Shown: piece after piece, positions 249 to 23,669 of the stretch | How positions within the stretch are numbered: position 1 is the stretch's first letter | How the letters are laid out: every line of letters starts with the position of its first letter | DNA from: Candidatus Altimarinota bacterium | GTDB lineage: Bacteria; Patescibacteriota; Gracilibacteria; BD1-5; UBA2023 | Direction of reading: 5' to 3' | Assembly: GCA_031410215.1 (NCBI GenBank) | Contig: JANNYQ010000076.1 | Coordinates: 1 to 38,392, forward strand | Length of the DNA stretch: 38,392 nucleotides | Program-made: the position numbers and the translations under genes | Notes under the pieces: model-generated | Seen by the model: only the letters and a program-made list of their open reading frames with translations | The model's database searches: none | What the model was told of the DNA's origin: nothing

Positions 249-324
249 TGGTGGGAACGCCGGGATTTGAACCCGGGACCATCGCCTTAAAAGGGCGTTG
301 CTCTACCAACTGAGCTACGTTCCC
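249..324 (-). tRNA. tRNA-Lys (anticodon UUU), 76 nt, CCA encoded
   Basis: The reverse complement reads GGGAACG-TA-GCTC-AGTTGGTA-GAGC-A-ACGCC-CTTTTAA-GGCGA-TGGTC-CCGGG-TTCAAAT-CCCGG-CGTTCCC-A-CCA. It has a 7-bp acceptor stem, D arm, anticodon loop CU-UUU-AA, T arm with GGTTCAAATCC-type loop, and a 3' CCA. Confidence 0.93.
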
Positions 325-455: not shown

Positions 456-3400
456 ATGAAAATTCCCAAATTTTTTTCTCGCATTCTATTTCACAAAACT
501 ATTGCCGCAACGCTCGTCATGATGATCCTCGTATCACAGACGATACATGTGGATTTTTTTGATAGAGTTGAGGCGGGACCTGAGAACTATCGAGATATTG
601 TCTCTATCATCGTCGATCGTGATACCTACAAGCAACAGAGAAGTTCCATCAAAAGGTATGCAGAGGATATCGCAGGATACCTCGGAGGAGTACGGACCTC
701 GATACTCGTCGTTGATCCCAATACTCCAGTGGCGACTATCGCCGCCAAAAATGAAAAATTCTACTATGAAGGTGATGGTGAGAAATGAACATCATCACTT
801 GTTGGTACCATCTTGATCGGGAATATTCCTATTCCTCAGGTGACAAAAGAGGGGCAGGGATTCTCGAGTCTCTATCCATATGTAGACTTCGATGACAAGG
901 TATTTGTCTATGACTCTACGAGTACTCAATACAGATATAATAGTCAAGATCCAAAAGTAGAACAAGTGGATATATGGCATGGCGTCATTAATCCAGCTGT
1001 CGGCCGTGGTTGGTCTGGTGTTACTGATATTGCTAAAATAGGACAGTTTCTCGATAAGACACATGATTTTTATACAAAAAGTGGAAAATTTACCCCAAGT
1101 AGTACTCCACCGAGAGTTTTTTACTATGATCAGTATCTCGAACAGAGTTCACTTGATTATACTCAGATACCCGCTTACGCATTGTTTATCAAAAATGCTG
1201 AAGAGATTGTATATAATCGATTTAGTAAATACTTCCTTGGGTATATAATTTCTGAACTCAACAGTCTCAAAAAAAATGATCAAAGTGATATAGAAAAAAA
1301 TATATTACTAGCTGCTGGAGTTGACCCCGAGACACAAAATAGTGTATTCCCATTGTCACAAATAGGAAAAATGCCGGATATACAAACTCGTATTCCAGCT
1401 ATGCAACTCATGAAACAATTTTATGAGCTGGTCAATAAAAAAACTCTCTGAGATATTCGAGCAGCGGTACATAATGCTTGACGTTATAATAGTGGAACAA
1501 CCGTAGCAGTCGATCAGCCAACACTTTTGATCACTATGGCGGATCAGATTGCTATGAATATTATCAAGTCATCCAATGATAAGTTCGAAAAATATATCGA
1601 TGAGGTAGAAGTGGGGTATGAGAAAAATGCCTGAGCAATAGGAGCTATGCCCCCATTTGATAGTACTACCATCAATGATCCAGTTGATAGAATTAGTCGT
1701 ACATATGCTGCATATATTTTTGGTAAACCAGTATCAGAAATGGATAATATTACTCAATGTAGTATTGCTCGTGGTTCTGACTATATAAGTTGACTATACA
1801 AACAGGGTATACTTGTAGAGGCAAATCAGGCATTCAATGGATATACTACTATCGAGAATGTCAAAAATTTTGAACGAGATGGCAAAAAAAGAGTCAACTG
1901 TGCACCAGGTGGTATAAATAGCCTTAAGACAGATACCTATTGGGGTAAAAATATTATCACTAATATGGATGTTGAGAACTGAGTATTTAAGCAACCATCT
2001 TGGATCGGCGGGTACTATGAGAATATATTTTCTCTCGGTGGTATGAATGAAGTAACTACTATAACGGGTGCTATCAGACTTGCTCATATTCCATGATGAT
2101 CTGATGCTAATACTATAACTCCACTTGCGAGTAACTCTTGTTATGCTGACGGTCTTGCCTATATGCTCCAAGAGCCACGAGGGAAAAATGGTGAAGAACC
2201 ATGGCCTAAAAAAGAAAGTGGAGAGGCAGCATGAGATTCTGCTATAACTTGTCTAACACAACAAGAAGAGCATAGTCATGCCTCTTGGTGAGGTGCTAAT
2301 GTGCCATATGCATCACGATTTCCTCCACATGAATTCGATTGGATAGCGAGTGTTGCTTGACCTGGTGATGATCCTCAGTCATTTGATCCTGCTCTAGCAT
2401 GACCAAAATGAATCTGTGAATTTTGACAAATTGCTATATATATAGCACCAACATCATATTTTTCGGGTGCTACCGTCAACCCAAGGTCGTCAGATTTTGT
2501 CTATGCATGTCTCCCGAGTGCATGAGAAAAATGTACACTTCAACCAGGTGAACTCATATCTGAAAAATGTCTCCCAAGAAATCTCAATCAATATATTGAT
2601 ACACTGGTTCAGTGATGATGAGCAGGTAGTATCTGTCCAGCGGTGAATCCTAAACCGAATGTTCTCTATAAAACTGCATGTTGAATTCTCTGAGATGAAA
2701 AACATGGTGCTGCAGAAGGAGGTAATTTTCGAAATAAATATGAACAAGATATTCCAGGTGGGTGGGGATGAATGTTCAATTCACCTTGTGCCGCACTCGC
2801 AGCAGTACAAAAAGAGAACGGATGAGTAGTACAGACTAATACAGTAATAAATCTCTGTATGGCAGTAGAAGATCCTACTATCACACAAGAGTATTCCTGA
2901 CTCAAAAAAGATCTTACAACATATGAAACTGCGGTATTCAAGGATATTAAAGACTCTCGAGTTTATCATAAATCGCCTACAAATGAAGAGATACAAGCAG
3001 CACAAGAGGCAAATGCTACTCCGTCTATACCAATAGATCATGACAGATATATATCATTTGCTCAGTCTGTTGGATGAGAATATAAGATCAAATATCCCAA
3101 CTTTTTTCGATTTGATCTCGAAAAATTACTCATACAATATCAGATTCGTATAGCTACAGATCTCATGACTATGCGTGGCAAGGAGCGAATTCGTCAATAT
3201 GGTACTTGAGCTGCAACAGCTATCACAGCATTCCGACTTGAGCTCGATCGTCTTGGGAAGGCAGCTTGGGCTGGTATACCATTGTCTGGATGAGCACTAT
3301 TGACAGCCAATCCTCCTGATCCAGCATGCTGGGGAGGACAATTTTCTGATGTACCTCTATGCAAGCCATCTACACCTGGATATAGAACTCCCGAAGAACT

Positions 3401-6400
3401 CCTTGATGGGCCCCTCGCAGATACTGAGATATACGAAGTTATCAGATCTCGCAATTGGTTGCACCCAGATATCAACGGGAAATATAGAACTATTATTTCT
3501 GCCGCCCTTTCCTATGGAGGAGGAGAGACATCGAGTATATCGACGACATCCCCTCAGGACTCAACATGTGAGCTCTCGCGATATATATGATTCACATGAT
3601 CAACTCTCACATGAGCTATTTCTGATACTCACTGTATCAGTGAACCTCCAAGATTCCAAAAATCAAAAGATGGATATGAAATCGCCTATCTCTGACTTAC
3701 TCCATATGATGGAGTTGATGCTGCATGGAACACAGATGAATCAGCGATCGCGAGTGATTATGCTATTTGACTCAATGAGATTGAATGAGTCAATATCACG
3801 CAAGAGTGAAATTTCGGTGCTTCAGGTGATGAGAATAAAATAACTAATCCTGCTACTCAATGTGGACCACCTGATGGTGTACCACTTCTCCAATGGCCGA
3901 GTGCTATCATGTGTTGGATAAAAGCACAATTCCCACCAAAAATCCTCGCAGGCTCATGTGGGCCTACAACTATTTGAATATCGAGTGGACTTTCTTCCGC
4001 AAATTCTCTTCCTATTTCCTCCGTATCATCTGCTATAGCAAATAATATGGTTGGACTCCAGGAATTTTATACTGGCGCACGACTCATAGCAAGTATGCCC
4101 CGATCTAGTATTACATTGCACGATAGTATCACTATAGATCTCACTCTCCAGAAGAAAGATACACTCCTCTCATCTCTTCCAACTAGTAAGGCATACCTCC
4201 AGATGGTTTCTGGTAGTAGTCAATGAAAAAAAATAGAATCCTGAAATTTGAGTAAATACCTCACGATTACTCCATCTGAAATGCAGGTTTGAGAGAAGGG
4301 CACCACCTTCATTATCAACTCACTTGGAAAAATAGCAGATATAGATCTACAAGCATATTATCTTATACCTCTTCCAGATGGTAGCGAACTCCGTATTGAT
4401 ACAGCGGTATTCTCAATTCGAATCACACCAGAATATTATGATCTCCAACTCGAGCAATCAGGTGCTATAGTAGCTGGAATAGATATAACGACAGTCGATC
4501 CTGTGAAACTTCGTATTCAAAAGATATTACAAGATACCATTAGAACTGCTTATACGAATTTTATTGCTATTCGTATTATCGATGATGTGAGTTGAAATAT
4601 CGTATATTCAAACTCCAAGTTCAATCCTACTACAGATACTATTCCCACCACTATTACCAAGAAAACTGGAGTATATAGAGTATCGGTATATGATAGTAGT
4701 GGACTGTCATGAGAGATGACATTTTCAGTACGTTCTGGAACTATATCACAAGTTCGTATAACACCTATTTCTTCTGCAATTGTCAGATGAGAACGTACTC
4801 TTGCTATGGTGCGACTTCTTGATCGTCTTGGTAATACTATCACACCAGATATTCATTCTCTTGATATTGAGGTAACATGAGGATATATTGTTGACTCAGT
4901 AGGACTCAAGAAAACAAAAATGGTTCTCGATGTTATTGAATCACAAGTACCGATAATTGTCGGATCTGATACTCCAGGTATACTCAATATTACGGCTACA
5001 ATAGATTGATGATTGGTTACTCAGACTGATATCACCGTTCATGATACAGCTCGTATTGTGCTCATGCGAGATAGTCTCCCTCGAGTTGGAGGAACTCAAG
5101 TTTCAACTCACATTGAAGTTCAAGATGCTTCAGGGAGCCGTATCGCTTGACTCTCGGCAGTTGCGAGTATTACTCTTCCTGCTGGAGCTGGCTCATTTTC
5201 CAAAAAAGCTATAACTATTACAGATGGTGTTTCTGAAATATTTGACTATATTCCTGGCACTATATCATGAGATCACTCGATATCAATCGATATTGCTGGT
5301 ATCTGATCAGTTTTTGATATAATCTTCTCCTTGCTCCCCGGAGATCCAATGTATATCAATCATATCAGATGAGAGAATAGTATATCGTTTGTCTTGAGAG
5401 ATCGTTACGGGAATATATCAAATTCAAATCTTGCAGGCACTCTTGTTCGCAATAGCGAACTTAGTAAAACTATTAATTTTGTATCTGGGCTATATAACTC
5501 ACCACTTCAGTCAGGATATTTCAAACTAGAAGTACCGTGACTCAAAAATAGTACTATAGTATATTCTGATGATGTATGAAGTCATACGGTAATGGGTATA
5601 TCCAAATATATTGCATATATTGTTGACAGCACCAAAAAAATACAATTTTCCCCTGACTATAATGCGAGGTATACGGTTCTTGCATGAGGTGATTTTGTTC
5701 GTGAATGAGAACAGATTCTCTACGATTCTCTTCCATGACAATCCCAGAGCCTAGCAGTGACAACAGAACTTGTTTCACCGTACAAAAAAGATATTCTTTT
5801 TTCTCTATTTCCAGATGGATCATATCGTCTCGGACAACTTTCTGATACTGCTATACAGACGAGTATATCTCTTTCCAATAATCTACCACTCCTCACTGTA
5901 TCTGATCTTACTTCACATAAGCAAATAGCTCAAGTACTCTATCCAATGAAGAACGTTCTTTTTGATATATGTCAAAAAACTCAACAAGAGCGTTGCGAGA
6001 CAACTCCAATTAAACCAACGATTCGTATCGTACTTCCAGTAGATCCCACTCTTACATCAATTAATACTAATGATATTGTCACTCTCAAATCAGAGAATAC
6101 TGTATTAGCTACTATAGATACTAATGGGAGTATATATATATCTAATGATATACAGATCATACCGGATGATATGAGTGTCCATGGATTATCTATGCGTATA
6201 GTCCAATCAGGTAGAGATATAGCTGTTTTGACTTATGTAACTGATAATACAAAATCTATTGCCCTCAAGGAAAGTCAGTCTCCAAATGTACCTCTCTTGC
6301 TTAATTCAGGATTCTCTCTCTCTAAAATGTCTATTTCCAGTGAGAATAATACTACCTATGGATATCAGACCATTCGAGAATCTCTAGGGCATGATATCGA

Positions 6401-9400
6401 TGATAGCAAAAATGGCCCCTCTCATACCGACTCACTTGGCTCATTATCCGAAGTACCATCTGTAGGATGGTCATCCAATAATACTACGCTTCTCTCATAT
6501 GCTGCTGGTGACACAGTGTGAGAGTCTACTCGGTTTTTTCACACATATACCATGATAAATATGGGTGATCCAGTTGCACACATTGATCATGGTCGTCCAG
6601 GTACTGAGACAGATGGCATAGATCGAAGTATTGGATCTATACTAGAACGAGATACTCGATCTAGTATAGCGAATTTTGCTCACCGAGATATGGATGCTGA
6701 TGGGATAGAGGACTTGATTGTAGTATATCAAGATGGCTATATAGGATTATTATTGAATAGATGAGGTAAATTCAGATCCCGTGGTATGATAGCATACAAC
6801 CGAGATATAGATTCTCAAAACATTATTTTCGCAGATTTTATTCGCGATTGATACTGAGATATACTATGACTTGATAAACAAGGGTCTTTTATCCTCATTG
6901 ATAATTCTAATCGGAAATTTGTTCGAAAGAATATAGTTCTCGAATTATGAGCCCCTCTTCCAAGTCACATATCTCAATTCCGTATCCATGATATGGATGC
7001 TGACGGACGTGATGATATAGTTTATATAACAGCAGGTTGAGAACTTGCTATACTCTATGGTACTCAAATAGCAGGGAATTTTATCAAAAAAATCCTCGAT
7101 CCAACACTTGGACTCACTCTCTCATCTGTGCCCGTCAACGTGGGAGGTGCTATTCGGACCAATACTACCCCACAATTCCAGTGATCTGTCTGAGTTGCTC
7201 CTACCAATTCATCAGGCATAGATGATAGCGTGCTCAAATGAGAAGTATTCTATCAATATAGTCAGCTCAATCCAGCTCCTTCTATTGCTCAAGTGAGTCT
7301 CGAGGTACTTTCAGGTACACTTGATGATATATCAAATGGAACCACAGGAAATAGGGTATCTACATTTATCAGGAGTCAGTATGCTAAGGCCTACGGACTC
7401 AATGTAGAGAAAGTATATACAAATACAACTCATGCAACTCTCTATCCGGATGATCGTATTGCAGCTACTATTCGTATCGAGAACAGCTCATCTCAGATCA
7501 TGAGATGAGTCGAATATCTCGATACTATTCCCAAAATATTTAGTGTAAAAGATACACAAAAATATATTATACGTCGTTCAAATACCAGTATATCAAGAGA
7601 ATATAAGGCTATATGAGATGGCGAATATGATACTCATTTTATTCTCTGAGATATATCCCCTGGAGAAAAAATAGAAGTCATATATGAGATGGTGGCATTA
7701 CCAGCTAGCTACGGAGAGATGATAGTGGGTGATCTTGAATGAGGAATGACTGGAACTGATATATATGGAGATATTGGATTCAAAACATCTACTACTTGTG
7801 GTGCCAGTATGCTTCTCTGGCTCTCATGACCCGACCCAAGAGACTACACGAAATGAACTCATGAGTTTGGTTCCGCAAACTTCCCTGATGGAATGAGTAG
7901 CCGTCTTATTGATATTAATAAGGATAGTATACCCGATAGTATCATGAATAGATCTCGAGAAGATCTCATCAAGGATAAAGAAACTCTTGTGAACTCGAAT
8001 AAAATTAACTATTCTGGACCAATTCTAAATATTAAAAATAATCAGGGTAGTGCTAGTATCGGACTTGACGATAATTTTGCAGATAATCTGAGTCAGACTG
8101 TTGAGGATATTGCTAACTGACTTTCTTGTGGATTTGGAGGTGGCTCATGTATGAGTTTTCCTATGAATTGGGCACCTCTTGCTCCTGGATCAGATCCAGT
8201 TTTATTTGGGAATCCTATAGGTGATGGACTCAAGGTCTGAGAATGACTTCCTATATTTTCAGCCCTTACGGGTATACCAATATATGGTACTTGGGGATGT
8301 TTCCCTATGCCATCTGTATGGCCAGTATCTCCCATTGGATATACAAGTACCTGTTCATCCAATACTCCCAATGCTGGATGATACCTTGGTACAAATGATC
8401 CTACCAATTTTCTTCGTATTTTTGTCACACCGACTCTCACTCTCGGTATGGGTACAGCCATCTGTCTCTGAGGTCCAGCGAGTACCGCCTGACAGATACC
8501 TCCTCGCTGACTCTCTCCTCTGATACAATGAGGAAATTGTATTGTTGTAACTAAACCCATGAATGTGTGTAAGTGAGATGGATCTTCGAGTGATGGTGAT
8601 GTAAGTGCTATATCAGGTCTCGGAGGAGTTGGTTGAGATAGTTGGAATGCCTCAAGTTGTCAACCTCAAGCAAATACTATCACTGAATCAGATAATCGTG
8701 CTCTCACAGAGAGCATTGTAGGATATTTGAGAAATCCGAATCCGAATCAACTCACAGGAATATACTCAAATATGAGTATGCGATGACCAAGATCTAGCAA
8801 TGTATGACCACTCATTGCTATTGGATGAGCTGCGAGTGGATGATCTGAGATAAGTATAGAGGTAGATTCAAATACAAAAATATCTGATATTGGATCTGTT
8901 ATTAAGGTTAAAAATAAACGAATTGCTGCATTCCCAGATTTTGTCATGGATTGGCTTACAAGACAGACGGAAGAGCTCACAACATCGCTCTTCACACCAC
9001 CTAATCTGACGATTATTCCTCCGACGAGCTTTGGTCAAAATGCCCAGGTCGATTCGAGCTATGCTGATTTTTCGAAGAATCTTGGGAAAAAATTCTCAAG
9101 TGCGAATCTGGATAATATCAAACAGGGAAGTAGTACTGTCTTTGCTGCCAAGGGGGGATGAGTACCTGGTACGCTTAATGCTATGAAATCCGCCTATACA
9201 TTGATCGGGAAACTGCCATTTGTCTCGATCAAACAAGTCAATATCCCACTCAATATCCCATGGTTTGATAAGACAGAACTCGCCAAATACCAGAGATCAC
9301 TCGATGGATATAAAAAAGAGATTGATACGACTCTGAAGAATTTTTGTATCAATGATCCATCCCCCGCTTGTCTCGATAAAAAAGCCAAATTCCAAAATGG

Positions 9401-12400
9401 AGCATTCGTCTCGAGTATATCGCAAAATCTCAAGCGCATCGAAGAATATAAAGCATTCCCACTCAAAATACAAAAATATATCACCTGGAAGGAGAGATAT
9501 ATTGCCCAGATTCTCTGCAATATCACCTCGATACAACAGATTACAGGAGGATGGTTGCGGGACAATGGAGTCAGATTCCGTAAGTGGGCTGAACTCTATG
9601 TTCTCATCAAGGCTATTGCCCAGAGCTGGCAACCGATGCTTGATATATTTGCTGACGCCAACAAGAGTTGTGGCGTGTGTCGCAATGAGCGAAACAATCT
9701 CCAATATTGGAAGTTCAAACTTATCTCAGCACTCATTCCATCTATACCAGTACTTCGGTTTCCGAAGTGGCCAGATATTATTCTTGATCTCTCAGATATT
9801 CGTCTAGGGATTAATATATCTATGCCCAATTTTGTACCACGTATCTCTCCCATACGTCTCCCATCACTCCCATCCCTCTCAGCTGGATCACTCTCTGCAT
9901 CTCTATCACTCCCAGGACTCCCGATACTCCCTGGACTTCCTCCTCTTCCAGATCTTCCAGACCTTCCTTCGCTACCAAAAATAAAACTCCCAGACCTTCC
10001 ACCACCACCAAAAATCCCAAAAATTGCAGGATCTATATCGGCATTTTTGGGCATTATGAAGCTGATATCGAAGATGTATTGTTTTTATCAGAAAACAGTA
10101 CTGATACCTGAGTGGCAAGTAGGTGATGTAATAGCACAACGTACAGAACGACAGGGGACATCACCGTTTGATTTTATCAATCTCTCTCTCCCACAATTTT
10201 CTCTTCCATCGATTCGTGAGATTCGAGTCGGTAGCCATGTGAACTCTGAGCTCCGCTCTGATTTTATCTCTGAGTTTTCCCGGTCGGCAGTGCGGCCGAT
10301 CAACGAGTTCCAGACAGATCTCCAGGGTGCGATCCCGAGCTCTATCGGTACGAGTATCACGACCCCAAGCGTGAATGTCGACGTGAGACCAGGAGCTTAT
10401 CTGGATCAAAAATGAAATGAAACACTTCCAGATCGAGTCACAAAAATGATAGCAGATATCGATAAGCAAAAAAATATATTTCTCGAAATCGGAGAATTTG
10501 TCACATATATCACTCGAGAACTCGATGCTCCAGAACTCACTCAGATCAGTACTAATCTGAGTAGATGACTCCGAGTAGCTCGATTAGAGGCAGATCAGCT
10601 AGAGAGTGGGCTCACTGCATACAATAATACACGATTCGATATCCTAAGAGACTACCTGAGTGCTGAGAATGATAACAACGCTCATCTCCAGAATATCGTC
10701 GATCTCATATCTCGTGATATGGTCGGAGAGCCGAGACAACTCATCGCAGATGTATCAGATACATCGAGTCGTGCTACGAGACTCCTCTCCGCATATGATG
10801 AGCTCCAGTGAACTCCGAGTGCGGATCCATCATCTGACCTTGATCGAGGACTCACAGCGTCTCGCACCGCTCTCACGAATCGAGTATCTCGTATGGTTGC
10901 TGAGATATCTCCGACATCCACCACTCCATCATCGTCATCTGCGAATATGGCAAGTGGATATTCTCCGAACTATCAGGGGATCTATATCCGTACTACGAGT
11001 GGAGTACAGACTCGACTCTTTGATTATATTGCTCCTGTGACAAAGGATACCCGAGTAGATACGATCGATATCGATGGAGATGGTGATCTCGACTATATCT
11101 ATCTCCTCGATGGAGCTCTCTACATCAAATATAACTTGACTCAAGTCCCAAATAAGATCGTTGATATAACCACCAAGATATCGAGTATCACGCGTGATGA
11201 TCTCACTCCATATGTACCAGATTATTTCTATGAAGATGTATCGACTCCACACAATCTGAACTACTCATTTACTCCATCGTCTCAGACTGAGCGTGAGTGG
11301 AGAGTAGAGTTCTATGATCAGTATATCGAGTGGGACAAGCTCGATATCTGAGCTCATGATCCACGAATATCTCCGAAGACGACGATCGATATGTTCTCAA
11401 GTATAGCGAGTGTGCCACTTGCATCTCATTCGGGTATTCTGACTCATCGTGTAACTCGCTCTCTAGGGTCTGTTGCTGATACACAGTCATTTATCCTCGA
11501 GTGACGCAGTATCGATATATATACCGGTCCACTGTCACTGTCTCTCTCTCCAGGTCGAGTACTCTATACAGGCGATCGGGGTGTCACTCTGAGCTATCAC
11601 GACCAGACTACTCCTACGATCCGTACCATATCACTTGCCCCACATACTGGATATGAGTTCTCGAGCCCTACTGAGATCACGATAGAGAGGGGACAACTCT
11701 ATGTTATCGGTGCAGAGAGCAACTCTCGCTATACTTATAGTGATGAATTCGTCTGACTCCCGATCCTCCCTGGTATGCGTCTCTATACCTCTGATGCTGG
11801 ATCAGTAGTCAGAGATTTGATAGGTCGCCAGGATATTTCACTTCTCGGTGGTAGTACTTATATCACCTATGATCTCGGACAACGAGCAGATAGCTACAAT
11901 ATCACTCTCCCATATGCCGATGGATACTACTATGCGAGACTCCAGAATCTGACTGATAAAAAACTCGATCGAGCTGGAGTGACTCTCCTTGCACCACAGG
12001 CCGCAAGTGATAATGGTGATCCAATCATCGATCTCCCGACTGAGATAAGGCTCCCGATCTACACGACTCGTAGCTATGAACTCAATGATATCCTCACCGA
12101 TCTCAGTGTAGCGACACTCACAGTAGATAGCGATATCACGATTGACACGAACAATAACGCTATATTCGATGATGACTTCGTATCTGACAGTCCCACAGCG
12201 AAGATATCTCCTCGAGACATCACGTTCGGAGTATTCACACAACCAGGCAAGTATAATATGGTACTCAGAGCCGTCGATGCACTTGGCAATACCACGACGA
12301 TGCCACTCACGGTGACTGCTTATACGCCAATACCACGCATAGAGACTGTCACTGGGACTGGATGGGTCATGGGTAGTATATCTGAGTCACTCGGTGGGAT

Positions 12401-13010
12401 ACCAACTCACTTGTTCCGAGTGAGATCTTGAGAGCAGCCGATCCTCCTCTCTTCAGGTTCTACGCTATCGAGCTCATTTGGATGATTTGCTACGGGTTCA
12501 TTTTTTGTCTCTCCTGAGACGATCACACTCAGCAAGTGACCAAAAATCGGAACCACAACCACAAGAGGTGAGATCACACTCAGTCCTGGGCATCGTACAG
12601 ATATTGCCCCTGCGACTCCGACGGATCCGATGCGGATACTCACGGTCGATGCATCAGGATCGATATCACATATACATATACTCACACTTCCTGATGATGC
12701 CAGATTCATCGATAGTTCAAAGAATACGAGCACAGCTACTGGTGTTATCCTTACACCTTCATCTGGTATCTCTCGTATCGTAACTGCGAGTTCGACAGAC
12801 CCATCGATCCCCGCAGGACAGTATATCACGGATATGGGCTACCGACCACTAGCAGCACTTGCCCGAGATGGCAATATCTATACGCTCGATCCGCTTGTGA
12901 CTCTCAGGTATCGTAGCAGGGACTGATATATGAGTATCGAGATCATTAAACGCGGGATAGTGGTTGCGACGGTGGAGTATCGTATCGATTTTTTCTATAC
13001 GCTGCGGTAA
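456..13010 (+). CDS. Giant secreted/anchored cell-surface protein (~4184 aa) with FG-GAP/VCBS-like, Ig-like, Cys-rich and Pro-rich modules (table 25)
   Basis: By hand reading, the frame with pos mod 3 = 0 has no TAA or TAG from ATG 456 to TAA 13008-13010. Track ORFs starting at 456, 813, 3300, 5757, 6552, 7293, 7893, 8946, 9183, 10893, 11775 and 12630 all share this frame and are separated only by TGA. An upstream in-frame TAA at 417-419 fixes the start. The N-terminus MKIPKFFSRILFHKTIAATLVMMILV looks like a signal peptide or anchor. DxDxDG motifs are present (HRDMDADGIEDLIVVY, IHDMDADGRDDIVYI, IDIDGDGDLDYIYLLDG). Confidence 0.85.
9855..10025 (+). repeat. Pro/Leu-rich low-complexity tract inside the giant CDS
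   Basis: The translation reads RLPSLPSLSAGSLSASLSLPGLPILPGLPPLPDLPDLPSLPKIKLPDLPPPPKIPKI. The DNA is CT-rich with reiterated ctt-cca / ctc-cca units. Confidence 0.8.
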
Positions 13011-13097: not shown

Positions 13098-14576
13098 ATG
13101 CTCGCTCGCGTCACCATCATCGGTCGTCCCAATGTCGGGAAGTCATCTATATTCAATTCGCTCTCAGGTCATCGTATCGCAATCATCTCAGATATCGAGA
13201 ATACGACTCGTGATATCATCGAGTACCATATCGACGATCTAGAGCATGGTATCTCCTATATGATGGCAGATAGTGGGGGTATCGTGAGTGCCGACAATGA
13301 GACACTTCTATCAGATGTACGAGGTCGAGCCAACGATGCAATCCTCGCCTCTGATCTGATCCTCTTCGTCGTGGAGTATGATCGTATGACAGAGTTCGAT
13401 GAATACATCGTGAAGTTGCTTCGCAGGTCCAAGAAGCCAGTACTTGTAGTCGCGAACAAGGCAGACAATCCAAAACGAGCCCTTGAGGCGTATCAGCATA
13501 TGAGTCTTGGACTTGGTGATGTAGTGCCTGTGAGTGCCGTACAGACTCGTGGATTTGGTGAGCTTAGAGTCAAGGTAGCCGAGATGCTCAAGGAACTCGG
13601 ATTTGGTTATGTCCCGAACGAGCTCCATGAGGGTCTTCTCAGACTCGCCATCATCGGTAGGCCGAACGTAGGGAAGTCATCTCTCGTCAATGCTATTGCT
13701 GGAGAGACTCGCTCTATCGTATTCGATATGCCAGGTACCACTCGTGATGCGATCGATACGGTCATCAAGTTCAAGGATGAGGATATCGTCCTCATCGATA
13801 CCGCAGGTATTCGCCGAGCTGGTAAGATCGGATCAGCCAATATCGAACAGTGGAGTGTGATGCGAGCAGAGAAGTCAGTTGAGAGATCCGATGTTGTCGC
13901 AGTCGTGATCGATGCGTTCGAGGGAGTGGCTCATCAGGATGAGCATATCGTCGGTGAGGCTATGAAAGAGAAGAAGGGAATAATCCTCGTTATCAATAAG
14001 TGGGACAAGGTTATGAATAAACCAGGAGTCAACAAGGATACGATCCTCGAGCGATATATGCACTACCTTTCGAAGAAGTTTGACTTTCTCTCGTATGCTC
14101 CAGTCGTATTCACGACAGCGATCGAGAACAAGCGTATCGATCTCGTTCTCGAACATGCGATAGCGATCCGAATCGAGCGGAACAAACGAGTCAAGACCGG
14201 AGTATTCAACAAGTTCCTCGAACAGATCACCTATGATCACGCTCCAACAGGAAACCGCAAGTCGCACAAGCCACGGATATACTACGGATCACAGGTGGAC
14301 GTCAATCCTCCCAAGTTCATGATATCAGTTAACAATGCTGATCACTTTCACTTCTCATATGTTCGCTATATCGAGAATAAGATCCGTGAGGTATTCGGAT
14401 TCGAGGGGACTCCGATAGAGCTCGAACTCAGATCTCGCAAGAGTATGTTCAAGCCCAAGGAGCAAGGTGGATCTCGTGAGGATCATTTTGGAGAAGAGAT
14501 CGTCGAGCTCGAGCAGAAGCTTGCAGATAAGAAGATCGATACCTTCGGTAAAAAGAAACCTCGAAAAAAACGCTAA
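13098..14576 (+). CDS. der: GTPase Der/EngA (ribosome large-subunit assembly)
   Basis: An uninterrupted 492-aa ORF with two tandem GTPase domains, each with a GRPNVGKSS P-loop. It also has DTAG and NK(A/W)D motifs, a C-terminal KH-like region and a basic tail. It ends in TAA. Confidence 0.96.
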   Translation: MLARVTIIGRPNVGKSSIFNSLSGHRIAIISDIENTTRDIIEYHIDDLEHGISYMMADSGGIVSADNETLLSDVRGRANDAILASDLILFVVEYDRMTEFDEYIVKLLRRSKKPVLVVANKADNPKRALEAYQHMSLGLGDVVPVSAVQTRGFGELRVKVAEMLKELGFGYVPNELHEGLLRLAIIGRPNVGKSSLVNAIAGETRSIVFDMPGTTRDAIDTVIKFKDEDIVLIDTAGIRRAGKIGSANIEQWSVMRAEKSVERSDVVAVVIDAFEGVAHQDEHIVGEAMKEKKGIILVINKWDKVMNKPGVNKDTILERYMHYLSKKFDFLSYAPVVFTTAIENKRIDLVLEHAIAIRIERNKRVKTGVFNKFLEQITYDHAPTGNRKSHKPRIYYGSQVDVNPPKFMISVNNADHFHFSYVRYIENKIREVFGFEGTPIELELRSRKSMFKPKEQGGSREDHFGEEIVELEQKLADKKIDTFGKKKPRKKR

Positions 14577-20662: not shown

Positions 20663-22228
20663 ATGGATATTGCAGTGACGTCAGATACAACAGCATCAGT
20701 ACTTCCACTTGATCATGGATCCAATCCGATCATCATCTCTATGCAGACAGGCCTGGAGGGATATCGCCTTCGCAATTTTTATATTACCAATAGCTTTCAG
20801 TGATTTGTGTGGATGATTTTTCACTTCTCGGTAGTTTTTTTCTTCTGACTCTTGCTCGATAACCTTGTTCTCGTCGGGCTCTTTCTCGGATTCGCCAATC
20901 TGATCGCATTTTCTATCGATGTCCCACTTGGTATCATCCAACGCTATATTCCAACTCGTCGAATGTTCATCTTCGCTGCGATCTCTCAGCTGATTGCGAC
21001 TGGTATATTTTTTGCGTTTATATTCCAGATATTTGGGATCATCGAATATGTCTCTGGTGTCATCACCCCTGAGTCACTCGAGTCTGGTAAGGCATGGTTC
21101 TTCGGGAGTGCTATCAACTGGATCGGAGTGATCGTGGCATCAGTGTGCTATGGATTGACCAAGGAGATCAACGATGTATCGACATATGGATATGTCCTCT
21201 CACATGCTGATCCGAGTGAATACGGTACAATCCTCGCTCGCAACAATATTACATTTGGTATCGGGTCTCTTATCGGTCTCGTATTGTCTGGTTTTGTATT
21301 ATCTTTTTCTCCAGCAATTGCCGTGATATTCCTCGCCGTCGTGATTGCTGGATTTCTCGCATTCACGATTCGATTTTTCGATAACTCGATGGACTCCGTT
21401 ACTATTGCTGATATGGCGAGTTTCAGAGTCTCTGTACAAAAATGGAACAAGGAAAATGTACGAGAATATATCACCGAAACAGTCCAAAAAGTCGATCTTG
21501 AAAAAATCATCAATGGAGCTAAGTATCTCATGCTCAAGCCAAAACAAACCTCCAAAGAAACAAAAATTCCATGGAAAGATGTTTTTGTTTCCAGTAAACG
21601 AGAATTCTCTATCATCTGGGAGATCTGTATGCATAAGCCTATGCATATATCGCTATTTTGGACTATTACCTTGGTCCTGACATTTGGATTTTGGGACACA
21701 TTTGCATCATCGTTCCTCCTCCAATTCCTCGATCAGATGAAGCCAGGATGGAGCTATATCCTGCTCGCTATGATAGGTATACCAGGTATCGTACTACAGG
21801 AGACTGCGAGCAAGATCGGAACTCGGATAGGACTCAAAACAATTGGGATCATCGGTCTCGCACTTTCTGGCGGTTCTCTTATATTGATGGGAATATTTGC
21901 CATGGGATCGACTTTGAGTCCTGCCATCATACTCTCACTTGCTCTCATCAACTCACTCGGGTACGCCTGCGGTATGTCGACTGGACAGAACCAATTCCTC
22001 GATATGTACAATCGCATTTACGCAGAACACGAGTGACTCACGGAGATCAATGCTAATGCCTCATCAGGTCCTATGAAAGTCATCCAGAATCTTGCGAATG
22101 TGATCTGACTTGTCATTGGATGAGCTCTGGTGGCATTTGGATTTCCTGCATTCTTTATTCTTTTCGGACTTGTCATATTGGCTATACTCGGATGGACAAT
22201 CCGAGAGAAACAGCGAATACAAATTTAG
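20663..22228 (+). CDS. Multi-pass membrane transporter, MFS-like
   Basis: ATG 20663 is in frame with track ORF 20852-22036. The frame continues through TGAs to TAG 22226-22228 (521 aa). Many hydrophobic helices are split by a hydrophilic central loop. The family assignment is tentative. Confidence 0.6.
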
Positions 22229-23199
22229 CTCCACTCCAGTGTCACACTCCGATTCCTCACGATCTCGACTTCTAGATCTCGGAGTATATATGAGAGATCT
22301 TTGTCTTTGAGGATAATTTTCTGTTGCCACTCTCCTCCATACCGCTCACGGATATCCGTATCAAATGCCAAAAAGGTACTATTCTTTTTGAGAAGTCCGA
22401 TTTTATTGATGAGTTTTCGCATGATATCTTCGACTTTTTTTTCCTGTTCATCATGTACTCGTATCGTCACGAACTCAGCAAATGGTGGATATCTGAAGTC
22501 AATCCGCTCACGAGAAAGATAAGTGAGAAATGATCGAGTATTGCCATCCATGATCTCTCTGAGGAGTGGATGATCAGGAGTAAAGGTCTGTATATACAGG
22601 GGGAGTCACTGCTTCTTATAGTATGAGATCTCGTTGTAGATATCTTCCTCGATATGATAAGAGGGGATCGATAGATTGAGCTCAAAAGAGAGCCAGATAA
22701 CCGCTCCAATACTTGGATGTACTATACTCCCACCGATCTGGGTTGTCAGGATAATATCGCTCGTATTGATTCTTGAGTAGAGAATCTCTGTTTTTTCTCT
22801 CGTATCACTATCGATGCGGAGTACTCGAGTATCCTTTGGGAGAAGTATTGTGAGATTTTCCTCGATCTGTTGTATCCCGACTCATACTGGATTTATTCGA
22901 CTCCCATGGCAGCTCGGGCACACGATAGGAAATGGTGCCGCCTGACTACACTGATGACAGATGAGACGCTTGGTAGGAGTTGTATGGTAGGCAAATGCAA
23001 TATCACAGTGTGGACACTTCTCATAATGACCACAATCCGCACAGATCCACGCCCTAGAATTACCTCTTCTTGAATAAAAAATCAAAGACTTTTTTCCTGC
23101 TTTCTTCACTTTTTCCAACACACTGATAATCTCCCTTGATAGACCAGGAGCCTCGATTCGAGCACTTTGGAGTGAGATGATAGTGAGGATGGAGGACAC
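22225..23199 (-). CDS. PriA-like protein: C-terminal half only (Cys-rich zinc region, degenerate helicase lobe 2, C-terminal domain)
   Basis: Track ORFs 22882-23199 and 22225-22551 share a frame (648-nt offset) and are joined via TGA. It aligns from memory to E. coli PriA from about residue 400 onward: KSLIFYSRRG, then CADC..CPHC..CHQC..CPSC, G(TGA)VGIQQIEE, and ERIDFRYPPF. The open frame begins only 22 codons upstream of the GTG, inside nrdR. It is 324 aa and ends in TAA. Confidence 0.7.
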
Positions 23200-23222: not shown

Positions 23223-23669
23223 CTATCCCAATTCTTCCTCGATAAATTTCACAAATCCTTTCACATTATCATGGTTATGGTAGATTGATGCATATCGGAC
23301 AAATGCCACCTCGTCAAAATCTCGGAGCTTGCGGAGAATATCTCGACCAACACGCTTCGAACTGATCGCCTGCTTGTTCTGTGCCCATTCATTCTCAAGT
23401 GTATTGATCGCATCCTCGAGCTTGTCGGGGTCAAATGGTCTCTTCACGAGAGCCTTGAGCATAGAGTTGACGATCTTGGTGCGGTCGTATGGCTCGAGTT
23501 CGCCCGATGACTTGGTCACCATGAAGGATACGAATTCGAGTCGCTCGAATGTAGTAAATCTTGATTCACACTTTTCACACTCGCGACGACGGCGAATAGC
23601 TTTACCATCATCAGTTGTACGAGAGTCGATAACACGAGTATCGAGATTGCGGCATTTTGGACATTTCAT
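23223..23669 (-). CDS. nrdR: Transcriptional repressor NrdR
   Basis: MKCPKCRNLDTRVIDSR...ECEKCESRFTTFE is the zinc ribbon, followed by an ATP-cone. It is 148 aa, uninterrupted, and ends in TAG. Confidence 0.95.
   Translation of the reverse strand: MKCPKCRNLDTRVIDSRTTDDGKAIRRRRECEKCESRFTTFERLEFVSFMVTKSSGELEPYDRTKIVNSMLKALVKRPFDPDKLEDAINTLENEWAQNKQAISSKRVGRDILRKLRDFDEVAFVRYASIYHNHDNVKGFVKFIEEELG

What the first reader, a model, noticed from the sequence alone, without database searches (positions are those of the whole stretch)
456..13010. Single 12.5-kb ORF: ~4184-aa giant surface protein hidden by ~90 in-frame TGA codons
One frame is free of TAA and TAG for 12,555 nt, while the standard-code track shows only pieces of 60-410 aa.

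Features of the product:
- An N-terminal signal/anchor helix.
- A long Cys-rich extracellular region (about 1450-4000), which fits the DsbA-like gene in this window.
- Tandem beta-sandwich/Ig-like segments at about 4300-5700, for example RITPISSAIVRGERTLAMVRLLDRLGNTITPD and HIEVQDASGSRIAGLSAVASITLPAG.
- FG-GAP/VCBS-type Ca-binding repeats.
- A DUF11-like segment.
- A Gly/Cys/Pro-rich core and an LPxLP tract.
- More Ig-like and FG-GAP units toward the C-terminus.

The N-terminal stretch (YRDIVSIIVDRD...GTILIGNIPIPQV) weakly recalls the alpha/beta region that precedes gingipain/C25-type modules. This resemblance is speculative.

In a small-genome CPR organism, a gene occupying a third of this window is a strong candidate for host or prey attachment machinery. 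Most of its length has no assignable family.
Basis: partly seen in the sequence, partly recalled or inferred. Interest (0 to 1): 0.85.

Follow-up and report, generated by a model that had tools for sequence, protein, structure and literature searches.

The report
Conserved giant Gracilibacteria surface protein
The 12.5-kb reading frame is a real single gene, read with UGA as glycine, that encodes a 4184-residue cell-surface protein found as one giant gene in at least 88 Gracilibacteria species; it probably helps these tiny host-dependent bacteria attach to other cells, but over 90% of its length matches no known family.

Summary
Window 456-13010 (+) is one frame of 4184 codons with 93 in-frame TGA, no TAG, and TAA only at the end. 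TGA encodes glycine (code 25). This is shown by housekeeping genes in the window and by this gene itself: orthologues have Gly codons, never Trp, at the window's TGA columns.

The ORF is neither chimeric nor an artefact. Relatives occur in at least 88 species-level reference genomes, nearly all Gracilibacteria. In about 55 of 58 loci with both ends present it is a single 3600-4700-aa ORF. It is collinear end to end and often lies just upstream of der/ftsH. dN/dS against an 80%-identical orthologue is about 0.15, with purifying selection in every 300-aa bin.

Architecture supported here:
- a conserved N-terminal hydrophobic signal or anchor;
- an N-terminal alpha/beta domain with many invariant polar residues;
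- two kinds of repeated ~90-aa modules, probably beta-sandwiches;
- FG-GAP calcium-binding repeats, the only significant Pfam hit;
- a weak DUF11-like unit;
- a strongly conserved Gly/Cys/Pro core, a long-helix bundle, a proline tract and an amphipathic helix, none with a PDB or viral fold match.

The gingipain/C25 idea and the "Cys-rich" emphasis are not supported. A role in host attachment is plausible and matches published proposals for Vampirococcus, but it is inferred. Verdict: new member of a known kind.

The parts
456..13010 (+). Complete CDS of the giant protein (4184 aa plus TAA stop); 93 TGA codons read as Gly
   Evidence: collinear single-ORF orthologues
483..557 (+). N-terminal hydrophobic segment (aa 10-34) after a K/R-rich start: Sec signal peptide or uncleaved membrane anchor; conserved small residues (A-x-A-like) at aa 38-40
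   Evidence: Kyte-Doolittle 19-aa peak of 1.66; KD at or above 1.6 in 61 of 77 orthologues, with a conserved SQTI.VDFFD..A motif; helix in the AF2 model
576..2180 (+). Conserved N-terminal domain (aa 41-575): alternating beta/alpha fold (aa ~40-220), then a helical region; invariant D144, K148, W174-H175, K201, D225, E249, R255, D308, R343, D353, D363, C435, R439
   Evidence: no significant fold or Pfam match
2253..2855 (+). Lineage-specific insertion (aa 600-800) holding 9 of the 36 Cys; present in only about 20-40% of orthologues
   Evidence: Occupancy 0.18-0.53 in the 77-sequence alignment; missing from L001-L005, present in L006; Cys positions
2856..4055 (+). Conserved region aa 801-1200 with invariant H838, P841, D861, R864, K1009, Y1074 and the CGPPDGVPLLQWPSAIMCW motif (C1136, C1153)
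4581..5420 (+). Tandem type-A modules of ~90 aa (aa 1376-1462, 1513-1565, 1575-1655) with a conserved D..GN motif (D1456/N1460, D1649/N1653); probably Ig-like beta-sandwiches
   Evidence: hhalign probabilities 84-96%; weak Invasin_D3 hits in orthologues; invariant D/N
5790..6245 (+). Type-B modules (aa 1779-1833, 1862-1930), related to the two C-terminal modules
   Evidence: hhalign probabilities 88-97%
6663..7085 (+). FG-GAP / integrin-alpha-type calcium-binding repeats (aa 2070-2210) with invariant DxDxDG..D loops (D2078/2082/2086, D2131/2135, D2179-2187)
   Evidence: Pfam FG-GAP_3 E 1.9e-11; found in 8 of 11 diverse orthologues; PDB profile hit 8w20_C at 7e-7; internal repeat at 8.6e-7; invariant Asp
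7383..7715 (+). DUF11/DUF7927-like beta-sandwich candidate (aa ~2310-2420)
   Evidence: Sub-threshold Pfam hits at the equivalent position in P0001 and P0002 (E 0.007-0.065) and in one more orthologue; hhalign 74% to a type-A module
8097..8675 (+). Gly/Cys/Pro-rich conserved core (aa 2548-2740; GLSCGFGGGSCMSFPMNWAPLAPG...), with family-wide conserved Cys 2558, 2565, 2670, 2695, 2705, 2735
   Evidence: Conservation peak; 267 representatives found with this region; no Pfam or PDB match
8931..9875 (+). FPDFxMDWxxRQxxE motif (aa 2826-2840), a variable linker, then a beta-hairpin and a bundle of 39- and 50-residue helices with CxxCRNER (aa 3072-3079); the best-conserved block of the protein
   Evidence: Alignment A2; conservation; AF2 model of window aa 2903-3319, pLDDT 81-91 over the first helices; no PDB or BFVD fold match
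9876..10250 (+). Conserved proline tract (LPDLPSLP.I.LP.LPPPPK.PK), an amphipathic helix (aa 3191-3213, conserved C3209) and a PEW..GD.IAQ.TER motif
   Evidence: Pro positions at least 95% conserved; the helix carries 3-7 charged residues in every orthologue, so it is not a membrane span; extended tract plus helix in the model
10353..10940 (+). Fast-evolving helical / coiled-coil-like spacer (aa ~3300-3495)
   Evidence: Lowest conservation; pN/pS 0.46 against L008; weak apolipoprotein/TRIM25 coiled-coil matches to the profile
10953..13007 (+). C-terminal region (aa 3500-4184): DIDGDGDLD acidic loop (aa 3539-3547), beta-rich segments, and two type-B modules (aa 4003-4081, 4102-4178) ending in a conserved FFYT motif
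   Evidence: Homologous in all orthologues at 35-41% identity; hhalign repeats; faster evolution than the rest

Best explanation
Window 456-13010 is one functional gene of a Gracilibacteria (BD1-5) genome that uses genetic code 25, where UGA is glycine. It encodes a 4184-aa protein that is exported through an N-terminal hydrophobic signal or anchor, so essentially all of it lies outside the cell.

It belongs to a vertically inherited orthologous family that is usually single-copy. The family is present as a 3600-4700-aa gene throughout the Gracilibacteria and often lies next to der and ftsH.

Inferred mechanism: the protein is a long modular envelope fibre. A membrane-proximal N-terminal alpha/beta domain is followed by repeated beta-sandwich-type modules and calcium-binding FG-GAP repeats, which are interaction modules typical of integrins and bacterial adhesins. 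Next comes a disulfide-stabilised Gly/Cys/Pro core, which fits the DsbA-like gene in the window, then a helical bundle with a rigid proline tract and an amphipathic helix. The distal C-terminal quarter evolves faster. The protein most likely mediates contact with the host or prey cell envelope in these host-dependent bacteria.

Shown: ORF integrity, the genetic code, conservation, purifying selection, the FG-GAP repeats, the internal repeats and the conserved novel blocks. Inferred: export and topology, adhesion, the disulfides, and any host-contact role.
For: ORF and code. At the window's 93 TGA columns orthologues have GGN 33% and TGA 15%, matching the GGN-column profile, with no Trp.

Independent intact orthologues: L003 is a single 4070-aa ORF. 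About 55 of 58 complete loci from 88 matching reference genomes carry one 3600-4730-aa ORF. There are 24 full-length database representatives, collinear at 23-29% identity.

Synteny with der/ftsH.

Purifying selection: dN/dS about 0.15 against L008, and every 300-aa bin has pN/pS of 0.12-0.46.

Export signal.

Interaction modules: FG-GAP_3 at E 1.9e-11, with invariant Asp loops; repeated modules; weak Invasin_D3, DUF11 and PKD hits.

Family-wide conserved Cys. DsbA/thioredoxin-like neighbour.

Literature: Vampirococcus (Absconditabacteria) has membrane-localised giant proteups up to 4163 aa with DUF11/integrin domains proposed to mediate host recognition, plus alpha-2-macroglobulins like the one in this window (PMC8080830). 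VCBS-repeat adhesion proteins were detected in Gracilibacteria proteomes (PMC11452946).
Against: There is no direct evidence of surface localisation, expression or host binding.

The family is conserved end to end across a class-level clade whose members live in very different habitats and presumably have different hosts. That is unusual for a host-specific adhesin and fits a conserved structural or mechanical role as well.

Only about 3% of the length has a significant domain assignment. The Ig-like folds were not verified structurally, and the N-terminal model is poor (pLDDT 40).

The N-terminal domain has many invariant polar residues, which could mean enzymatic activity. It is unknown whether the N-terminus is cleaved (A-x-A at aa 38-40) or anchors the protein.

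Some orthologues are disrupted by frameshifts or a stop codon; these could be assembly errors or real inactivation.
Confidence: 0.55

Rival explanations
1. It is a core envelope scaffold, not a host adhesin: a conserved wall-spanning or S-layer-like structural protein, or part of a cell-division or cell-stacking apparatus, needed for Gracilibacteria cell architecture whatever the host.
For: The architecture is near-universal and collinear across 77 orthologues from genomes of 21-59% GC and many habitats. The gene often lies next to the housekeeping genes der and ftsH. Purifying selection is strong. The most conserved parts are novel non-adhesin blocks: the Gly/Cys/Pro core, the helical bundle and the proline tract.
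Against: FG-GAP and Ig-like modules are typical of ligand binding. The C-terminal quarter evolves faster, as expected for a distal interaction surface. No S-layer, SLH or cell-wall-binding domain was found.
Confidence: 0.25
2. It is an enzyme-bearing attack protein. The N-terminal domain (or the conserved core) would be a hydrolase, for example a clan-CD/C25-like peptidase, held on a long stalk to degrade the prey envelope, as proposed for giant proteins of other predatory bacteria.
For: The N-terminal domain has many invariant polar residues, including H175 and C435. It has an alternating beta/alpha fold, and gingipain K appears among the weak Foldseek hits (rank 14, prob 0.90, E 0.048). The giant-gene preprint links giant proteins to cell-wall degradation in other phyla (10.1101/2023.11.21.568195).
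Against: There is no Peptidase_C25 or other enzyme family hit in the window protein or in 23 other family proteins scanned, and no PDB sequence or profile match. H175 and C435 are about 260 residues apart; by my recollection the clan-CD dyad is usually about 30-50 residues apart. The enzyme-like domain would sit next to the membrane anchor, away from the prey. The model is low-confidence, and the better-ranked Foldseek hits are generic alpha/beta folds.
Confidence: 0.12
3. It is not one gene. The frame would be a chimeric assembly, a pseudogene, or several adjacent genes that only look fused because TGA is ignored.
For: In five of the six first-fetched relatives (L001, L002, L004, L005, L006) the region is broken by frameshifts, by one TAA, or by a stop close to the contig end in L002. 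Standard gene callers report pieces.
Against: The breaks fall at different, non-homologous positions and, in the L001 and L005 zones, coincide with homopolymer runs. About 55 other genomes have an uninterrupted ORF. Conservation and purifying selection are continuous across every 300-aa bin. TGA columns align with Gly codons.
Confidence: 0.03

Closest known systems
Giant membrane proteins of the Absconditabacterium Vampirococcus lugosii (for example VAMP_16_20, 4163 aa, 'hypothetical protein'; PMC8080830)
   Same: Both come from code-25 CPR lineages. The size is nearly the same (4163 vs 4184 aa). The Vampirococcus proteins are predicted to be membrane-localised, the set as a whole carries DUF11 and integrin-type domains, host recognition and attachment is proposed for them, and the genome also encodes large alpha-2-macroglobulins.
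   Different: None of the 80 listed loci is titled Absconditabacteria. The paper treats the proteins as a set and does not describe this conserved family, its collinear architecture or its novel core.
Integrin-alpha / FG-GAP (VCBS-type) repeat adhesins
   Same: There are significant FG-GAP_3 repeats with invariant DxDxDG calcium-binding loops. VCBS-repeat proteins in Gracilibacteria proteomes have been flagged as adhesion candidates (PMC11452946).
   Different: Only about 140-250 of 4184 residues are FG-GAP-like, with 3-4 recognisable blades, so a complete seven-bladed propeller was not shown. The rest of the protein is unrelated to integrins. NCBIfam VCBS models do not hit.
Bacterial Ig-like fibrillar adhesins (invasin/intimin Big_1, RTX/BIg giant adhesins)
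   Same: It is a long extracellular protein with tandem ~90-aa repeated modules that carry a D..GN motif (which I recall as typical of Big_1/invasin domains) and give weak Invasin_D3 hits.
   Different: There are only a few highly diverged repeats, not tens of near-identical ones. There is no RTX region, no LPXTG or T1SS signal, and no significant Big_x Pfam match. Most of the mass lies in non-repetitive conserved domains.
Gingipain / Peptidase C25 N-terminal alpha/beta subdomain
   Same: The topology alternates beta and alpha. By eye there is an 'hydrophobic strand-G-N/D-x-P-x-P ... Y-x-D-F-D ... aromatic-H/R-G' motif order similar to what I remember of C25. Foldseek gives a weak match to Kgp 4rbm.
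   Different: Pfam C25 does not hit any member, the Foldseek hit is not significant, and no His/Cys dyad with C25 spacing was identified. This is a resemblance only.

Membership tests
Genetic code 25 (Gracilibacteria/Absconditabacteria: UGA = Gly) | In-frame TGA in conserved genes falls at positions that are Gly in homologues | tested here: met
   FtsH (AxES, MDxFD), TsaD (SGxHT, AxGVS) and UvrC (GKxQL). In the giant gene, orthologues have GGN or TGA at 48% of aligned codons in the window's TGA columns, against 52% at GGN columns, and Trp is absent.
Genetic code 25 (Gracilibacteria/Absconditabacteria: UGA = Gly) | Genes end only with TAA or TAG | tested here: met
   All long ORFs in the window close at TAA or TAG, and many carry in-frame TGA.
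FG-GAP / integrin-alpha-type repeat proteins (Pfam PF13517/PF01839) | A significant match to the FG-GAP repeat profile above the gathering score | tested here: met
   FG-GAP_3 at E 1.9e-11, 44.8 bits against a cut-off of 26.9, in 2 stretches; found in 8 of 11 diverse orthologues.
FG-GAP / integrin-alpha-type repeat proteins (Pfam PF13517/PF01839) | Conserved DxDxDG-type calcium-binding loops | tested here: met
   D2078/D2082/D2086, D2131/D2135 and D2179/D2181/D2183/D2187 are at least 96% conserved in 77 orthologues.
FG-GAP / integrin-alpha-type repeat proteins (Pfam PF13517/PF01839) | Seven repeats that form a complete beta-propeller | tested here: inconclusive
   Only 3-4 units are recognisable.
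Peptidase C25 (gingipain) / clan CD | A match to the Peptidase_C25 profile | tested here: not met
   No hit at E up to 1 in the window protein, at E up to 0.1 in 13 homologues, or at E up to 0.01 in 11 full-length orthologues.
Peptidase C25 (gingipain) / clan CD | A caspase-like fold with a catalytic His...Cys dyad | tested here: inconclusive
   The AF2 model has pLDDT 40 overall. Gingipain K appears at rank 14 with E 0.048. The invariant H175 and C435 are about 260 residues apart, far more than the spacing I recall for clan CD.
DUF11 (PF01345) / DUF7927 beta-sandwich repeats | A profile match above the gathering score | tested here: not met
   Only sub-threshold hits were found (E 0.0063-0.065, 14-17 bits against cut-offs of 24.6-31) in P0001, P0002 and one other orthologue. 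In P0001 and P0002 they fall at the same relative position, window aa ~2310-2420; the position of the third was not reported.
Bacterial Ig-like domain adhesins (Big_1 / Invasin_D3) | Tandem Ig-like domains recognised by profile or by structure | tested here: inconclusive
   Internal repeats are shown by hhalign at 84-96%. Invasin_D3 appears only at E 5e-4 to 1.6e-3, below its cut-off. There is no structure for this region.
Giant surface/membrane proteins of code-25 CPR bacteria (as described for Vampirococcus) | More than 1000 aa, an N-terminal membrane or secretion signal, adhesion-type domains, and a CPR genome with a reduced metabolism | tested here: met
   4184 aa; N-terminal hydrophobic segment; FG-GAP repeats; orthologues come from Gracilibacteria MAGs. 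Description of the kind: PMC8080830. The reduced metabolism of the source genome was not assessed here.
Giant surface/membrane proteins of code-25 CPR bacteria (as described for Vampirococcus) | Demonstrated surface location or a role in host attachment | not testable with these tools
   This needs proteomics, imaging or genetics.

The most novel reading that the evidence does not exclude
This family could be the clade-defining contact or feeding apparatus of the Gracilibacteria. It would be a roughly 4000-aa envelope machine, conserved across the lineage, whose most conserved parts (the Gly/Cys/Pro core, the FPDFxMDW motif with the long-helix bundle, and the rigid proline tract with the amphipathic helix) are new folds that do the mechanical or membrane-active work at the host interface, not merely passive adhesion.
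Probability: 0.2. Interest if true: 0.75.

Novelty: new member of a known kind. Interest (0 to 1): 0.5.

Why it matters
Gracilibacteria have small genomes and depend on hosts, and how they contact those hosts is unknown. A gene that takes about 1% of a ~1.3-Mb genome (the size reported for the closed Gracilibacteria genome in PMC6851277) is kept intact as one ~12-kb ORF in dozens of species and is under purifying selection along its whole length. That makes it very likely central to their biology.

This work turns a 'hypothetical giant ORF' into a defined orthologous family with signature motifs, a domain map and clear targets for structure prediction, metaproteomics and imaging. It is also a practical warning: standard-code gene calling shreds this gene into dozens of fragments, which is how most copies appear in public databases.

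The general idea that code-25 CPR bacteria carry giant surface proteins for host interaction is already published, so the conceptual advance is moderate.

Tried and rejected
1. A full-length homologue search timed out, so I split the query.

I used database homologues (P0002, P0007) and the window's longest TGA-free stretch instead.

3. I briefly thought the C-terminal ~1000 aa was lineage-variable. That was an artefact of BLAST HSP reporting: direct comparison shows 35-41% identity in all orthologues.

4. The idea of a second transmembrane helix after the proline tract was rejected, because every orthologue has 3-7 charged residues in it.

5. PDB sequence search, full-length profile search, Foldseek against PDB and against BFVD gave no significant match except through the FG-GAP repeats.

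6. NCBIfam gave nothing.

7. HMM-to-sequence self-search found no repeats apart from FG-GAP. Profile-profile comparison was needed.

8. An exact look-up of the window's Der protein found no source contig.

9. The giant-gene preprint and the Gracilibacteria genome and proteome papers do not describe this family.

10. A phage origin was not supported: there was no viral fold match, and the neighbours are housekeeping genes. PHROGs was not run.
Full report
**1. Observation**

Window 456-13010 (+) is 12,555 nt long and starts with ATG. It contains 93 in-frame TGA codons and no TAG, and its only TAA is the terminal codon. Across the window, each frame carries TAA or TAG at about 1.4-2.3% of codons. 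A random frame of 4184 codons would therefore hold roughly 60-95 of them, yet none is seen. Many other long ORFs in the window also carry in-frame TGA and close at TAA or TAG. The only tRNA found is tRNA-Lys at 249-324 (-).

**2. Genetic code**

With TGA marked as x, conserved motifs in housekeeping genes of the window place x where Gly is expected (the Gly expectation rests on my knowledge of these families):
- FtsH: ARAVAxES and EMDxFD
- TsaD: VSGxHT and LAxGVSAN
- UvrC: DGGKxQL

A non-circular test on the giant gene used a codon-aware alignment with loci-derived orthologues. At the window's 93 TGA columns, orthologues have GGN in 33% and TGA in 15% of aligned codons. That is almost the same profile as at the window's own GGN columns (40% and 12%). 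Trp does not appear, whereas it makes up 63% at TGG columns. TGA supplies 93 of the gene's 350 Gly codons. This is code 25.

**3. A real single gene**

Homologue searches found few but clear relatives. In L003, from an independent Logan assembly, the orthologue is a single 4070-aa TAA/TAG-free ORF with 15 TGA. It is collinear with the window protein and is followed by der and ftsH, as in the window, L001 and L004.

A scan of species-representative genomes with the best-conserved block (alignment A2) found 88 genomes that encode a relative. Nearly all are titled Candidatus Gracilibacteria or Patescibacteria group, some 'Peribacteria'. Their record names point to glacier-fed-stream, groundwater, sludge and human or dolphin oral sources. 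In about 55 of 58 loci with both ORF ends present, the match lies in one ORF of 3600-4730 aa. These ORFs contain 0-263 in-frame TGA, and TGA use rises as GC falls from 59% to 21%.

An exhaustive HMMER search found 267 representatives. Of these, 24 are full-length proteins of 3587-4642 aa, all collinear with the window protein at 23-29% identity.

The few disrupted orthologues (L001, L004, L005, L006) are broken at different places. The L001 and L005 zones contain homopolymer runs, and L004 has a single TAA. These are errors or recent lesions, not conserved gene boundaries.

Against the closest complete orthologue (L008, 4198 aa, 80% identity, 4182 aligned positions), dN is 0.131 and dS is 0.868. 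Every 300-aa bin has pN/pS of 0.12-0.46, and the last ~900 aa evolve fastest. The frame is therefore coding and constrained throughout.

**4. Anatomy (amino-acid numbering of the window protein)**

*N-terminus.* A K/R-rich start and a hydrophobic segment (aa 10-34) are conserved in 61 of 77 orthologues. They are followed by SQTI.VDFFD and small residues at aa 38-40. This is either a Sec signal or an uncleaved anchor. No other membrane span is conserved.

*aa 41-575.* This is a conserved domain. An AF2 model of the orthologue P0007 is poor overall (pLDDT 40), but aa ~40-220 reach 65-83 and show alternating strands and helices. Many polar residues are invariant across 77 orthologues: D144, K148, H175, K201, D225, E249, R255, D308, R343, D353, D363, C435 and R439. 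Foldseek gives no significant match. The top hits are generic three-layer alpha/beta folds, and gingipain K appears at rank 14 with E 0.048.

*aa 600-800.* This stretch holds 9 of the 36 Cys. It is a lineage-specific insertion present in about 20-40% of orthologues.

*aa 801-1200.* This region is conserved, with an invariant CGPPDGVP...C motif.

*aa 1376-1655.* Profile-profile comparison shows tandem ~90-aa type-A modules (probability 84-96%) with an invariant D..GN motif. A second module type at aa 1779-1930 recurs at the extreme C-terminus, aa 4003-4178 (88-97%). Weak Invasin_D3, PKD and DUF11 hits in some orthologues fit beta-sandwich folds.

*aa 2070-2210.* FG-GAP repeats are the only significant Pfam hit (E 1.9e-11). 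They have invariant DxDxDG Asp loops, match a solved FG-GAP-containing esterase by profile, and occur in 8 of 11 diverse orthologues.

*aa 2310-2420.* There are sub-threshold DUF11/DUF7927 hits at the same position in two orthologues.

*The most conserved part.* It has three elements:
- The Gly/Cys/Pro core at aa 2548-2740 (GLSCGFGGGSCMSFPMNWAPLAPG...), with six family-wide conserved Cys.
- FPDFxMDWxxRQxxE at aa 2826-2840, then a block at aa ~2925-3140.
- A proline tract LPDLPSLP.I.LP.LPPPPK.PK, a conserved amphipathic helix (aa 3191-3213) and PEW..GD.IAQ.TER.

The window's own TGA-free stretch, aa 2903-3319, was modelled with 49 homologues. Mean pLDDT is 67, and 81-91 over the first part. The model shows a beta-hairpin, helices of 39 and 50 residues, a second hairpin, the extended proline tract and the helix. 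Neither PDB nor BFVD holds a similar fold (best E 1.3 and 0.8).

*C-terminal third.* aa 3300-3495 is a fast-evolving helical spacer. aa 3500-4184 is conserved at 35-41% identity in all orthologues.

**5. Context**

The window also encodes a 1924-aa bacterial alpha-2-macroglobulin with 26 TGA, a DsbA/thioredoxin-like protein, an MFS transporter and a MutY-like glycosylase. By eye I also assigned Der, FtsH, UvrC, TsaD, SmpB and NrdR from the translations. Pfam hits on the called genes of the related loci support Der and FtsH. This is a chromosomal housekeeping neighbourhood, not a mobile element.

**6. What it most likely is and does**

The protein is exported and almost entirely extracellular, with interaction modules (FG-GAP, repeated beta modules) and conserved Cys that are likely disulfide-bonded. 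The Vampirococcus study reports that the ten longest proteins of that code-25 CPR predator (1392-4163 aa) are membrane proteins with DUF11, integrin and fibronectin domains. The authors propose that these form the fibrous surface and mediate host recognition, alongside two alpha-2-macroglobulins. The largest, VAMP_16_20 at 4163 aa, is annotated only as hypothetical (PMC8080830). A Gracilibacteria metaproteome study flagged VCBS-repeat proteins as adhesion candidates (PMC11452946).

The best-supported reading is therefore a giant envelope fibre involved in contact with the host. I put this at about 0.55, because localisation and binding are untested. The end-to-end conservation across a class-level clade fits a conserved structural or mechanical apparatus at least as well as a host-specific adhesin. 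The rivals are:
- a core envelope scaffold (0.25);
- an enzyme-bearing attack protein (0.12);
- not a single gene (0.03).

**7.

The observation, the code, the signal/anchor, the FG-GAP repeats, the Gly/Cys/Pro core, the LP tract and 'mostly unassignable' are all right. The Ig-like and DUF11-like calls are plausible and partly supported. 'Cys-rich' overstates the case: Cys makes up 0.9% overall, and the densest part is a lineage-specific insertion. The C25 resemblance stays a resemblance: no profile hit in any member, and an insignificant fold hit.

**8. Novelty**

Full-length members already sit unnamed in public protein sets, and most other copies are standard-code fragments. The general kind, giant surface proteins of code-25 CPR bacteria, is published. 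I found no description of this particular family in the papers searched.

What is new here:
- the recognition that this is a conserved, collinear family, often next to der/ftsH, spread across the Gracilibacteria;
- its domain map;
- its novel conserved blocks.

I rate it a new member of a known kind, with interest 0.5.

Noticed in passing
window 23810-29584 (-): A second giant gene of 1924 aa with 26 in-frame TGA. It is a bacterial alpha-2-macroglobulin (MG2, bait region, A2M, TED and bMG10 domains). The same pairing of a giant hypothetical protein with A2M is reported for Vampirococcus.
   Followed up: partly
window 13098-14576 (+) versus 456-13010 (+): Der/EngA has no TGA in 492 codons, while the giant gene uses TGA for 27% of its Gly codons (93 of 350). 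TGA-Gly usage is very uneven between neighbouring genes.
   Followed up: no
L084 (JBDHUY010000003.1), whole locus; also L016, L047-L049: The orthologue in L084 (3596 aa) and five other long ORFs in that locus contain no TGA at all, either as a sense codon or as a stop. Across the family, TGA count per gene ranges from 0 to 263 and tracks genomic GC (59% down to 21%).
   Followed up: partly
L001 9986-10050 and 16209-16465; L005 15724-15892; L006 3021-3162; L004 8856-8858: Some orthologues are interrupted by frameshifts (the L001 and L005 zones contain A7, A6/A5 and T5 homopolymer runs) or by one in-frame TAA, each at a different position. These could be assembly indels, phase variation or recent pseudogenisation.
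   Followed up: partly
window 2253-2855 (aa 600-800 of the giant protein): A Cys-containing segment (9 Cys) is present in the window, L006 and close relatives but absent from most orthologues. It is a lineage-specific insertion within the N-terminal third.
   Followed up: partly
window 22225-23199 (-) and 23223-23669 (-): By eye, this ORF looks like only the C-terminal zinc-finger half of the primosomal helicase PriA. It lies directly downstream of an NrdR-like gene. The N-terminal helicase part was not seen.
   Followed up: no
P0015 (2029 aa; ENA ERZ1426830 contig, no DNA available): A distant relative (25% identity) of the N-terminal domain only, in another giant protein with a different gene context (next to RNase J). 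The N-terminal domain may be shared by a second giant-protein family.
   Followed up: no
L056 and L060 (both from isolate GL98_UP_metabinner_9): Two separate contigs of one MAG each carry a copy of the conserved block. This is either strain heterogeneity in the bin or a rare duplication of a gene that is otherwise single-copy.
   Followed up: no
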